NCBI RefSeq assembly: GCF_058153355.1
Contig: NZ_CM177019.1
Length of the DNA stretch: 64,000 nucleotides
Direction: 5' to 3' (one strand)
This document shows, piece by piece, positions 59,173 through 59,602 of this stretch. The notes beneath the pieces were generated by a model. That model saw nothing but the letters and a program-made list of their open reading frames with translations. It had not been told where the DNA came from and searched no databases. Both the position numbers and the translations under genes were made by a program. Position 1 is the first letter of the stretch. Every line of letters starts with the position of its first letter.

Positions 59173-59248
59173 GAGAAGAATTTGGAGCGGGAAACGAGAC
59201 TCGAACTCGCGACCCCGACCTTGGCAAGGTCGTGCTCTACCAACTGAG
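59173..59248 (-). tRNA. glyV: tRNA-Gly(GCC)
   Basis: 76 nt; reverse complement reads GCGGGAATAGCTCAGTTGGTAGAGCACGACCTTGCCAAGGTCGGGGTCGCGAGTTCGAGTCTCGTTTCCCGCTCCA. Confidence 0.97.
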
Positions 59249-59293
59249 CTATTCCCGCTTGGGTGGTCTGTGCTTTGCAGCACTTTCAAATTT

Positions 59294-59369
59294 TGGAGCG
59301 GGAAACGAGACTCGAACTCGCGACCCCGACCTTGGCAAGGTCGTGCTCTACCAACTGAGCTATTCCCGC
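59294..59369 (-). tRNA. glyX: tRNA-Gly(GCC)
   Basis: identical 76-nt copy. Confidence 0.97.
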
Positions 59370-59526
59370 TTAATCTTCGTCTTTCGAACCGCTACTGCCT
59401 TGGCTGCCTTCACTCACCTTAGTCACTTACTTTTGTAAGCTCCCAAGGATTCGTTCAGTTGCCGCCTTGTCGCAATTCGAAATACTGCGATTGGGTGGTC
59501 TGTGCTTTGCAGCACTTTTCAAATTT

Positions 59527-59602
59527 TGGAGCGGGAAACGAGACTCGAACTCGCGACCCCGACCTTGGCAAGGTCGTGCTCTACCAACTGAGCTATTCCC
59601 GC
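59527..59602 (-). tRNA. glyY: tRNA-Gly(GCC)
   Basis: identical 76-nt copy. Confidence 0.97.

What the first reader, a model, noticed from the sequence alone, without database searches (positions are those of the whole stretch)
59173..59602. Three identical tRNA-Gly(GCC) copies separated by a reiterated spacer
Three identical 76-nt tRNA-Gly genes lie at 59173-59248, 59294-59369 and 59527-59602 on the minus strand. The spacers (45 and 157 nt) share a repeated gggtggtctgtgctttgcagcactt(t)tcaaatt unit, so the array itself is a direct repeat and a potential recombination or integration hot spot. No integrase or island is attached to it here.
Basis: seen in the sequence. Interest (0 to 1): 0.15.

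Follow-up and report, generated by a model that had tools for sequence, protein, structure and literature searches.

The report
glyVXY tRNA operon with ancient ERIC
This is the ordinary E. coli operon of three identical glycine tRNA genes, but its long spacer holds a 121-base ERIC repeat element that K-12 lacks, that sits at the same spot in many related genera, and whose RNA hairpin looks to be under selection.

Summary
Three identical 76-nt tRNA-Gly(GCC) genes lie on the minus strand at 59527-59602, 59294-59369 and 59183-59258 (not 59173-59248), so the spacers are 157 and 35 nt. This is the known E. coli glyV-glyX-glyY operon between orn and queG/datA.

The long one is the normal 36-nt spacer plus a 121-nt ERIC (IRU/RU-1) element at 59372-59492, ending 2 nt before glyX.

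About 30% of 5,426 complete E. coli genomes carry it; K-12, B and O157 do not. It is not a recent insertion. The same element, with the same junctions and orientation, sits in the orthologous operon in at least 11 genera. These copies form their own clade, are better conserved than the operon's promoter and leader, and keep the hairpin through compensatory changes.

Within arrays the element moves, duplicates and disappears by recombination between repeat units. The array is not an integration site: 5,415 of 5,426 genomes keep both flanks together.

Verdict: a known operon plus a known repeat family. The modestly interesting addition is a probably selected RNA hairpin in a tRNA precursor, overlooked because K-12 lacks it.

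The parts
59660..59687 (-). Putative sigma-70 promoter of glyVXY. The -35 is TTGCAG (59687-59682), followed by a 16-nt spacer and the -10 TATAAT (59665-59660). A G+C-rich discriminator (GCGCCTCC) follows, and an A/T-rich tract lies upstream.
   Evidence: Read by eye from the sequence; invariant in five E. coli alleles. The consensus scan missed it because the -35 matches only 3 of 6. A PglyV-X-Y promoter is drawn in PMC10380432. The exact position is inferred, not shown.
59527..59602 (-). glyV: first tRNA-Gly(GCC) of the operon, 76 nt with encoded CCA.
   Evidence: ARAGORN; Rfam RF00005, 69.1 bits; annotated tRNA-Gly in matching E. coli genomes.
59493..59526 (-). 5' part of spacer 1, the reiterated spacer unit. 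It contains a 5-bp stem-loop, GUGCU-GCAA-AGCAC, at 59502-59515.
   Evidence: Direct repeat D2; fold -7.2 kcal/mol. A stem-loop at this position occurs in 99 of 132 spacers across genera, with different stem sequences.
59372..59492 (-). 121-nt ERIC (IRU/RU-1) element inserted in the glyV-glyX spacer and co-transcribed. It folds as a long imperfect hairpin in the transcript sense. The printed ERIC consensus orientation is on the + strand.
   Evidence: Clean 121-nt indel relative to K-12-like and O157 alleles. 90 of 121 identity, without internal gaps, to the published 127-nt consensus; score 133.5 versus 27 +/- 5 for shuffles. RNA fold -43 kcal/mol, z -5.7, on the minus strand, versus -24, z -1.2, on the plus strand. 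Covariation in 23 orthologous copies.
59370..59371 (-). AA dinucleotide between the ERIC end and glyX +1. The same AA precedes the insert, so the indel boundary is ambiguous by 2 nt (a possible 2-bp target duplication or microhomology).
   Evidence: Alignment of long and short alleles.
59294..59369 (-). glyX: second tRNA-Gly(GCC).
59259..59293 (-). Spacer 2 (35 nt), the uninterrupted copy of the reiterated unit, with the same stem-loop at 59270-59283.
59183..59258 (-). glyY: third tRNA-Gly(GCC).
59124..59160 (-). Putative Rho-independent terminator: stem-loop at 59160-59133 followed by UUUUUGUUG at 59132-59124. It overlaps a DnaA-box-like site at 59156-59164.
   Evidence: Fold -14.3 kcal/mol; invariant among five E. 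coli alleles. The consensus scan did not call it because the stem has a bulge. Inferred.

Best explanation
The locus is the glyV-glyX-glyY operon: one promoter, three identical tRNA-Gly(GCC) genes, short spacers that each carry a small stem-loop, and one terminator.

In this strain the glyV-glyX spacer also carries a 121-nt ERIC element. This copy descends from one old insertion that predates the divergence of many Enterobacteriaceae genera. It has been inherited mostly vertically at this site.

Because it sits inside a tandem array, recombination between the repeated tRNA-plus-spacer units copies it to the other spacer, duplicates it or removes it. The K-12-type short allele is therefore most likely a derived loss, not the ancestral state.

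The element is transcribed as part of the tRNA precursor and folds into a long hairpin that ends 2 nt before glyX.

Inferred steps follow. RNase E cuts just 3' of glyV, and possibly in the A/U-rich 3' arm of the element (AG/AUUAA). RNase P cuts at glyX +1. The spacer is thereby released as a hairpin RNA of about 155 nt. Selection acts on that RNA structure, most plausibly because it serves as the structured element next to a single-stranded segment that RNase E needs in this precursor, or because the released hairpin has a role of its own.
For: Identity of the operon.

The insert is ERIC. It matches the published consensus at 90 of 121 positions without internal gaps, far above shuffles. The family is dispersed, with a median of 9 places per E. 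coli genome, all in unannotated intergenic DNA such as metE-metR and puuR-puuC.

The insertion is ancient and orthologous. 20 species from at least 11 genera carry it in a Gly array flanked by orn, and by queG wherever the held DNA reaches. All copies share the same junctions and the same departures from the general consensus. They form their own clade that roughly tracks taxonomy: mean identity 87% within the clade, versus 67-74% between the window copy and other E. coli ERICs. Six further Salmonella assemblies also carry it.

The constraint is at the RNA level. 97.7% of cells are paired. Eight pairs show double compensatory changes, versus 3.0 +/- 1.1 in shuffles (0 of 500 reach that) and 1-4 in slid controls. 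Several pairs are G-U, which work only in the transcript sense. The fold is -43 versus -24 kcal/mol for the two strands. Identity between genera is 83-94%, versus 37-78% for the leader and 52-75% for the trailer of the same transcription unit.

Intra-array recombination.

RNase E in this precursor needs unpaired spacer segments plus an adjacent structured unit (PMC4191395; PMC9841416). ERIC exposes an RNase E site in its 3' inverted repeat in Yersinia transcripts (PMC10969869; PMC2229807).
Against: No expression or processing data exist for the long allele, so every RNA-level step is inferred.

The element is dispensable. About 70% of E. coli genomes and most Enterobacter, Kosakonia, Raoultella and other arrays lack it.

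The covariation sample is small (23 sequences) and phylogenetically structured. The tool warns that shuffle controls overstate significance for related sequences.

High conservation is a general, unexplained trait of ERICs, so it may not be specific to this locus.

The species sample is biased: only genomes with an exact 23-mer were retrieved, and the loci held stop at L093.

The ancestral state within E. coli was inferred from outgroups, not reconstructed on a strain tree. Import by homologous recombination through the very conserved flanks cannot be excluded.
Confidence: 0.75

Rival explanations
1. Recent mobile-element insertion. An ERIC copy transposed into the glyV-glyX spacer in one E. 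coli sublineage, and the K-12 short allele is ancestral.
For: Compared with K-12-like and O157 alleles alone, the difference is a clean 121-nt indel flanked by a 2-nt repeat, as expected for a fresh MITE (miniature inverted-repeat transposable element) insertion. Only about 30% of E. coli genomes have it. The uninterrupted spacer 2 looks like the empty site.
Against: The same element, with the same junctions and the same private sequence signature, is present in the orthologous operon of Salmonella, Citrobacter, Klebsiella, Kluyvera, Leclercia, Yokenella, Trabulsiella, Silvania, Pluralibacter, Mixta, cryptic Escherichia clades and E. whittamii. The copies cluster by taxonomy. It is only 67-74% identical to other ERICs in E. 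coli, so no plausible recent donor was seen.
Confidence: 0.04
2. Neutral relic. This is an old selfish insertion with no role. It persists by chance and by being copied within the array, and its conservation reflects something other than selection on this RNA.
For: It has been lost repeatedly without obvious consequence. K-12, B and O157 lack it. ERICs in general are unusually conserved for unknown reasons (PMC2229807). No function has been reported for this copy.
Against: Between genera it is better conserved (83-94%) than the promoter/leader and the trailer of the same operon. The stem is kept through double compensatory changes and G-U intermediates. Unpaired segments are also nearly invariant. 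Within-array copying cannot hold sequences constant between genera.
Confidence: 0.2
3. Integration or island-insertion hot spot. The tandem tRNA genes serve as attachment sites for integrative elements.
For: tRNA genes are classic integration sites (general knowledge). About 11 of 5,426 genomes do not keep the two flanks together, and one of them (strain IH5) has a rearrangement breakpoint after the first tRNA.
Against: The neighbours are core genes in every allele inspected. There is no integrase in the window flanks.
Confidence: 0.02
4. DNA-level element. The palindrome acts as DNA, as a cruciform, a protein-binding site or an insulator for the adjacent datA locus, rather than as RNA.
For: It is a DNA palindrome about 210 bp from the nearest DnaA-box match of datA. 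The function of datA is sensitive to transcription through it (PMC10380432).
Against: The two strands fold very differently (-43 versus -24 kcal/mol), and several conserved pairs are G-U. These pairs are mismatches on the other strand and in a cruciform. datA works in K-12, which has no ERIC. The element lies upstream of two tRNA genes and the terminator, not next to datA.
Confidence: 0.03

Closest known systems
E. coli K-12 glyV-glyX-glyY (tRNA-Gly3, GCC) operon
   Same: Same genes, order, neighbours (orn upstream; yjeV, datA and queG downstream), spacer unit, leader and trailer. It is processed by RNase E direct entry in vitro (PMC4191395, PMC9841416).
   Different: K-12-type alleles have 36- and 35-nt spacers. 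This window has 157 and 35 nt because of the ERIC element.
ERIC / IRU / RU-1 (enterobacterial repetitive intergenic consensus; Sharples & Lloyd 1990, Hulton et al. 1991, Wilson & Sharp 2006)
   Same: About 120-127 bp imperfect palindrome; 74% identical to the E. coli consensus along its whole length; intergenic and transcribed; forms a long RNA hairpin; terminal inverted repeats.
   Different: It lies inside a tRNA operon rather than beside a protein-coding gene. It belongs to a locus-specific lineage with its own signature (CCUUGG...CUAAGG instead of CCCCAG...CUGGGG, and AATC...GATT ends). It is orthologous across genera, whereas ERIC positions are usually described as differing between species. 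The window copy lacks the terminal TA.
ERIC elements in Yersinia transcripts (De Gregorio et al. 2005, as summarised in PMC2229807 and PMC10969869)
   Same: Co-transcribed ERIC hairpin whose 3' inverted repeat carries an RNase E site and whose effect depends on orientation. All 25 locus copies here share one orientation.
   Different: That work concerns mRNA stability of flanking protein genes. Here the flanking genes are tRNAs, and no experiment exists. The original paper could not be read.
Functional tRNA-precursor spacers (3'ETS-leuZ and the metZ-metW ITS as sRNA sponges; Lalaouna et al. 2015, from memory; topic confirmed present in the library)
   Same: A by-product of tRNA operon processing that could persist as a discrete RNA.
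   Different: Those are short, Hfq-binding, single-stranded pairing RNAs. This would be a long hairpin of MITE origin. No evidence of accumulation or targets.

Membership tests
glyVXY tRNA operon | Three tandem tRNA-Gly genes with anticodon GCC | tested here: met
   ARAGORN and Rfam; the three are identical.
glyVXY tRNA operon | Conserved position between orn and yjeV/queG | tested here: met
   Annotation of matching genomes; tblastn of Orn and QueG in 20 species.
glyVXY tRNA operon | Single promoter and terminator, transcribed as one precursor | not testable with these tools
   Promoter and terminator were read from the sequence. A tricistronic precursor is used in PMC4191395 and PMC9841416. 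No transcript data for this allele.
ERIC / IRU / RU-1 | Sequence similarity to the ERIC consensus over the whole element | tested here: met
   90 of 121 identical, no internal gaps; score 133.5 versus shuffles 27 +/- 5, maximum 49. Consensus taken from PMC2759123 Table 1a.
ERIC / IRU / RU-1 | Imperfect palindrome of about 127 bp that folds as a long stem-loop | tested here: met
   121 nt; -43 kcal/mol, z -5.7.
ERIC / IRU / RU-1 | Conserved central core (the ERIC-PCR primer region) | tested here: inconclusive
   ERIC2 matches with 3 of 22 mismatches and ERIC1R with 6 of 22. The mismatches are largely paired compensatory changes in the stem.
ERIC / IRU / RU-1 | Multiple dispersed intergenic copies per genome | tested here: met
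   Median 9 detectable places per E. coli genome, none under annotated features; copies at five other loci were aligned.
ERIC / IRU / RU-1 | Terminal inverted repeats, 5'-TA-3' at the termini and a target-site duplication (PMC2229807 Table 1) | tested here: inconclusive
   Inverted ends AATC...GATT are present. The window copy is flanked by AA/AA, not TA. Relatives in Klebsiella, Pluralibacter, Mixta and Escherichia sp. ESNIH1 have TAATC...GATTA, so TA ends may be ancestral.
tRNA-gene integration site (genomic island att site) | Integrase or foreign DNA abutting the tRNA in at least some strains | tested here: not met
   5,415 of 5,426 genomes keep both flanks in one place; neighbours are core genes.
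Any Rfam RNA family covering the insert | Covariance-model match at E <= 1 | tested here: not met
   Only tRNA hits and a sub-threshold YrlA hit over tRNA sequence; nothing over 59372-59492.

The most novel reading that the evidence does not exclude
The ERIC hairpin in the glyV-glyX spacer is a domesticated mobile element. On this reading it is a selected RNA module of the tRNA-Gly precursor, kept since before the Enterobacteriaceae genera split (with a divergent copy in Mixta). It would either tune RNase E/RNase P processing and the relative output of the three tRNA copies, or be released as a stable structured RNA with its own partners. It would have escaped notice because K-12, B and O157 have lost it.
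Probability: 0.3. Interest if true: 0.55.

Novelty: new member of a known kind. Interest (0 to 1): 0.3.

Why it matters
The operon itself is textbook.

The ERIC copy has some value for three reasons. First, it shows that the reference strains used for all work on glyVXY processing lack a structure present in about a third of E. coli genomes, in every Salmonella assembly retrieved, and in many other enteric genera. Second, it is a rare case of an ERIC whose orthology across genera can be followed, giving a direct handle on the old question of why ERICs are so conserved. Third, natural long, short and double-ERIC alleles offer a ready-made experiment on how a large hairpin next to an RNase P site affects maturation of a tandem tRNA precursor.

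If the element proves neutral, the locus remains a clean example of concerted evolution in a tRNA array.

Tried and rejected
- The consensus promoter/terminator scan found neither the likely promoter nor the terminator. Both were read by eye and are marked as inferred.
- Rfam at E <= 1 has no family for the insert. The YrlA hit (40.3 bits versus the 69-bit gathering score) spans tRNA sequence and was rejected as a tRNA-like artefact.
- The 'tRNA-Gly (x2)' labels and 60% coverage looked like copy-number variation. They turned out to come from how BLAST pieces are joined across repeats. A flank-only query was used instead.
- I first inferred a recent insertion from the comparison with K-12. I abandoned that after the cross-genus scan.
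- Wilson & Sharp 2006 and De Gregorio et al. 2005 are not held in the library. Their content is cited only through reviews, so I could not check whether this copy is among the 14 non-K-12 ERICs they list.
- PMC5938721 did not contain the primer sequences. The primer strings were confirmed to occur together in 246 papers.
- Literature searches linking ERIC to glyV/X/Y, or an sRNA to glyX in Salmonella, found nothing relevant.
- The ORFs listed across the array overlap tRNA genes and were disregarded.
- The serovars of the six Salmonella assemblies could not be determined.

Full report
CHECK OF THE OBSERVATION

ARAGORN finds exactly three tRNA genes in the 64-kb window. All are tRNA-Gly(GCC) on the minus strand, at 59183-59258, 59294-59369 and 59527-59602. 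Rfam's tRNA model scores each at 69.1 bits. The three 76-nt sequences, with encoded CCA, are identical.

The first (59173-59248) is shifted by 10 nt, so it starts inside the tRNA and ends in the trailer. The short spacer is therefore 35 nt, not 45. The 157-nt spacer is correct.

The shared spacer unit is real: direct-repeat family D2 covers 59256-59294 and 59488-59526, and the two copies differ by one extra A.

WHAT THE LOCUS IS

A 1.5-kb query matches essentially every complete E. coli genome (5,425 of 5,426). There the region is annotated as orn, three tRNA-Gly genes, a 17-aa ORF and queG. This is the glyV-glyX-glyY operon. On the minus strand the order is glyV (59602-59527), glyX (59369-59294), glyY (59258-59183).

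Upstream lies a plausible promoter: TTGCAG, a 16-nt spacer, TATAAT at 59687-59660, then a G+C-rich discriminator. Downstream lies a stem-loop followed by a U-run at 59160-59124. Both were read by eye, because the consensus scanner missed them.

The stretch between glyY and queG is the datA locus, according to PMC10380432. DnaA-box matches lie at 58915-58923, 58927-58935, 59089-59097 and 59156-59164.

WHY THE TWO SPACERS DIFFER

I aligned the window with a near-identical strain and with three short alleles: strain MS 21-1, the K-12-like strain K194T1-1018 and an O157:H7 strain. The 157-nt spacer equals their 36-nt spacer plus one uninterrupted 121-nt block at 59372-59492. The block is bounded by AA on both sides, so the boundary is ambiguous by 2 nt. 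It ends 2 nt before the first base of glyX.

The block folds into a long imperfect hairpin.

It aligns without internal gaps to the 127-nt E. coli ERIC consensus of Wilson & Sharp, as printed in PMC2759123 Table 1a. Identity is 90 of 121. The alignment score is 133.5, against 27 +/- 5 (maximum 49) for shuffles. The ERIC2 primer site is present with 3 mismatches of 22.

The block belongs to a dispersed family. At lower stringency it finds a median of 9 places per E. coli genome at 70-80% identity, none under an annotated feature. The examples I fetched lie in metE-metR, puuR-puuC, queA-acpH and ybhJ-ybhI, and align end to end with it.

Rfam has no family for it.

The insert is an ERIC (IRU/RU-1) element.

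DISTRIBUTION IN E. COLI

A 197-nt query spanning the long spacer is covered at 80% or more in one place in 1,606 of 5,426 genomes, about 30%. K-12 derivatives, B, O157:H7 and S88 have the short allele. O26, O145 and APEC O2-211 strains have the long one.

5,415 of 5,426 genomes keep both flanks in one place. In a spread sample of 60:
- about 40 have the short three-copy form (615 nt);
- 19 have the long form (736 nt);
- one has a two-copy array (strain 143, confirmed);
- one has 157-nt spacers in both positions (strain A39);
- one is rearranged after the first tRNA (strain IH5).

In A39 the two ERIC-bearing spacers are 100% identical, including two private substitutions and the extra A that marks spacer 1. 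The whole unit was therefore copied within the array.

THE ELEMENT IS OLD

I scanned one genome per species for the 23-mer that joins the tRNA 3' end to the spacer. The scan returned 84 stretches, held as loci L010-L093.

In 20 species a spacer of 141-159 nt matches ERIC strongly, always in the same orientation. These species come from Salmonella, Citrobacter, Klebsiella, Kluyvera, Leclercia, Yokenella, Trabulsiella, Silvania, Pluralibacter and Mixta, together with cryptic Escherichia clades, E. whittamii and one unclassified Enterobacteriaceae MAG. The element occupies spacer 1 in some, spacer 2 in others, and both in two Citrobacter genomes. Mixta theicola has a four-tRNA array with the element in all three spacers.

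All 20 arrays are flanked by orn, and by queG wherever the held DNA extends far enough. They are therefore the same operon.

The copies share the same junctions (ACCAcCC|AATCGCAG ... GACGAAGATTA[A/T]|GCGGG). They also share the same departures from the general consensus, such as CCUUGG...CUAAGG in place of CCCCAG...CUGGGG.

They form a separate clade whose branching roughly follows taxonomy. Mean identity within the clade is 87%. The window copy is 90% identical to the Salmonella copy and 75-82% to the Mixta copies, but only 67-74% to other E. coli ERICs and the consensus.

Six further Salmonella assemblies, retrieved through an identical Orn protein, also carry the element in spacer 1.

The simplest reading is one ancient insertion that was inherited vertically and reshuffled within arrays. 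Cryptic Escherichia clades, E. whittamii, Salmonella, some Citrobacter, Yokenella and Pluralibacter all have it in spacer 1. The long allele is therefore probably ancestral in E. coli, and the K-12 form a later loss. That loss could arise by gene conversion from the ERIC-less spacer 2, whose 3' end is identical, or by deletion between the AA repeats. This polarity is an inference from outgroups, not a tree reconstruction.

EVIDENCE OF CONSTRAINT

On 23 distinct locus copies, RNAalifold predicts a 30-pair hairpin.

In the controlled count, 97.7% of cells are standard pairs, against 25-40% when partners are slid. Eight pairs show changes on both sides, against 3.0 +/- 1.1 in shuffles (0 of 500 shuffles reach 8) and 1-4 in slid controls. 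Examples are pair 15-108 (GC 10, AU 8, GU 5) and pair 17-106 (GC 12, AU 10).

Several conserved pairs are U-G or G-U, which pair only in the transcript sense. Consistent with that, the minus strand folds to -43 kcal/mol (z -5.7), while the plus strand reaches only -24 (z -1.2).

Between genera the element is 83-94% identical to the window copy. In the same comparisons the 110-nt promoter/leader is 37-78% identical, the trailer 52-75% and the region further upstream 45-60%.

The sample is small and related, and the tool warns that shuffle controls are lenient in that case. I therefore treat this as good but not conclusive evidence of selection on an RNA structure.

The small stem-loop in the reiterated spacer unit also recurs. 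It is found in 99 of 132 spacers, with different stem sequences such as GUGCU/AGCAC, GUAUC/GAUAC, GUGUC/GACAC and UGCC/GGCA.

HOW IT MOST LIKELY WORKS

Shown elsewhere for the K-12 precursor: RNase E cleaves by direct entry 1 nt downstream of glyY. It needs an accessible single-stranded segment in the upstream spacer, and also needs the neighbouring tRNA as a structured element (PMC4191395; PMC9841416).

Shown for Yersinia ERICs, known to me only through reviews: co-transcribed elements alter transcript fate in an orientation-dependent way by exposing an RNase E site in the 3' inverted repeat.

Inferred for this allele: the precursor carries the ERIC hairpin between the intact 34-nt spacer head and glyX. 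RNase E cuts after glyV, and perhaps at AG/AUUAA in the element's 3' arm; this fits the RNase E motif as I recall it. RNase P cuts at glyX +1. A hairpin RNA of about 155 nt is released. The hairpin may stand in for the displaced upstream tRNA as the structured element RNase E recognises, or the released RNA may persist and act on its own. None of this has been tested.

RIVALS

A recent insertion is essentially excluded by the cross-genus orthology.

A neutral relic remains possible, because the element is dispensable in most E. coli and many genera and because ERICs are generally conserved. However, it does not explain conservation above that of the operon's own promoter, nor the compensatory changes.

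An integration hot spot is contradicted by the flank survey.

A DNA-level role is disfavoured by the strand asymmetry and the G-U pairs.

NOVELTY

The operon and the repeat family are both known. Wilson & Sharp reported 14 ERICs in non-K-12 E. coli, and this copy may be among them; I could not read that paper.

Searches of the held literature found nothing that links ERIC to glyVXY or describes an RNA from this spacer.

I file it as a new member of a known kind, of low to moderate interest. The finding as written is ordinary, and the added value lies in the conserved hairpin.

Noticed in passing
window 58914-59182: The region between glyY and queG is the datA locus (DnaA titration and DnaA-ATP hydrolysis), according to PMC10380432. 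DnaA-box matches lie at 58915-58923, 58927-58935, 59089-59097 and 59156-59164. Inverted repeat I2 is two opposed DnaA boxes. The box at 59156-59164 overlaps the glyVXY terminator stem.
   Followed up: partly
window ~58896-58949 (-): A 17-aa ORF (WP_010723271.1, yjeV-like), annotated in every E. coli allele inspected, overlaps the 3' end of queG.
   Followed up: no
window 59206-59344 (-): Sub-threshold Rfam hit to the Y-RNA-like YrlA family (40.3 bits versus gathering score 69, E 9e-7), spanning the 3' part of glyX, spacer 2 and the 5' part of glyY. It is judged an artefact of the tRNA-like domain of that model.
   Followed up: partly
L008 401-494 (E. coli strain noe1104); plasmid places: An ERIC-family copy lies between a MobH relaxase gene and an ArdC gene, in integrative or conjugative-type DNA. 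29 matches to the insert are on plasmids, so ERIC-like sequences also travel on mobile DNA.
   Followed up: no
L096 6159-6400 (E. coli strain IH5): A single tRNA-Gly next to orn is followed directly by dnaJ-dnaK instead of the rest of the array and datA, which indicates a chromosomal rearrangement with a breakpoint in the array. About 11 of 5,426 genomes lack contiguous flanks.
   Followed up: partly
L097-L102 2108-2848: In Salmonella a 246-aa periplasmic solute-binding protein gene (SBP_bac_3) lies between orn and the tRNA-Gly array. E. coli has no such gene there.
   Followed up: no
L020 9510-10300 (Mixta theicola): A four-copy tRNA-Gly array with an ERIC-derived element in all three spacers. 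The copies are 5 nt shorter and more divergent than the enterobacterial ones. No queG was detected downstream in the DNA held.
   Followed up: partly
L081 (record titled Chryseobacterium sp. 18061): A record labelled Chryseobacterium carries an enterobacterial-type tRNA-Gly(GCC) array with the exact spacer 23-mer. This is probably a mislabelled or contaminated assembly. The pattern also hit Acinetobacter, Paucibacter and Roseateles, where the long spacers are not ERIC.
   Followed up: no
window 59270-59283 and 59502-59515 (-); spacers in L010-L093: The reiterated spacer unit contains a 5-bp stem-loop. A stem-loop at this position occurs in 99 of 132 tRNA-Gly spacers across genera, with different stem sequences, which suggests a conserved structural role in precursor processing.
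   Followed up: partly
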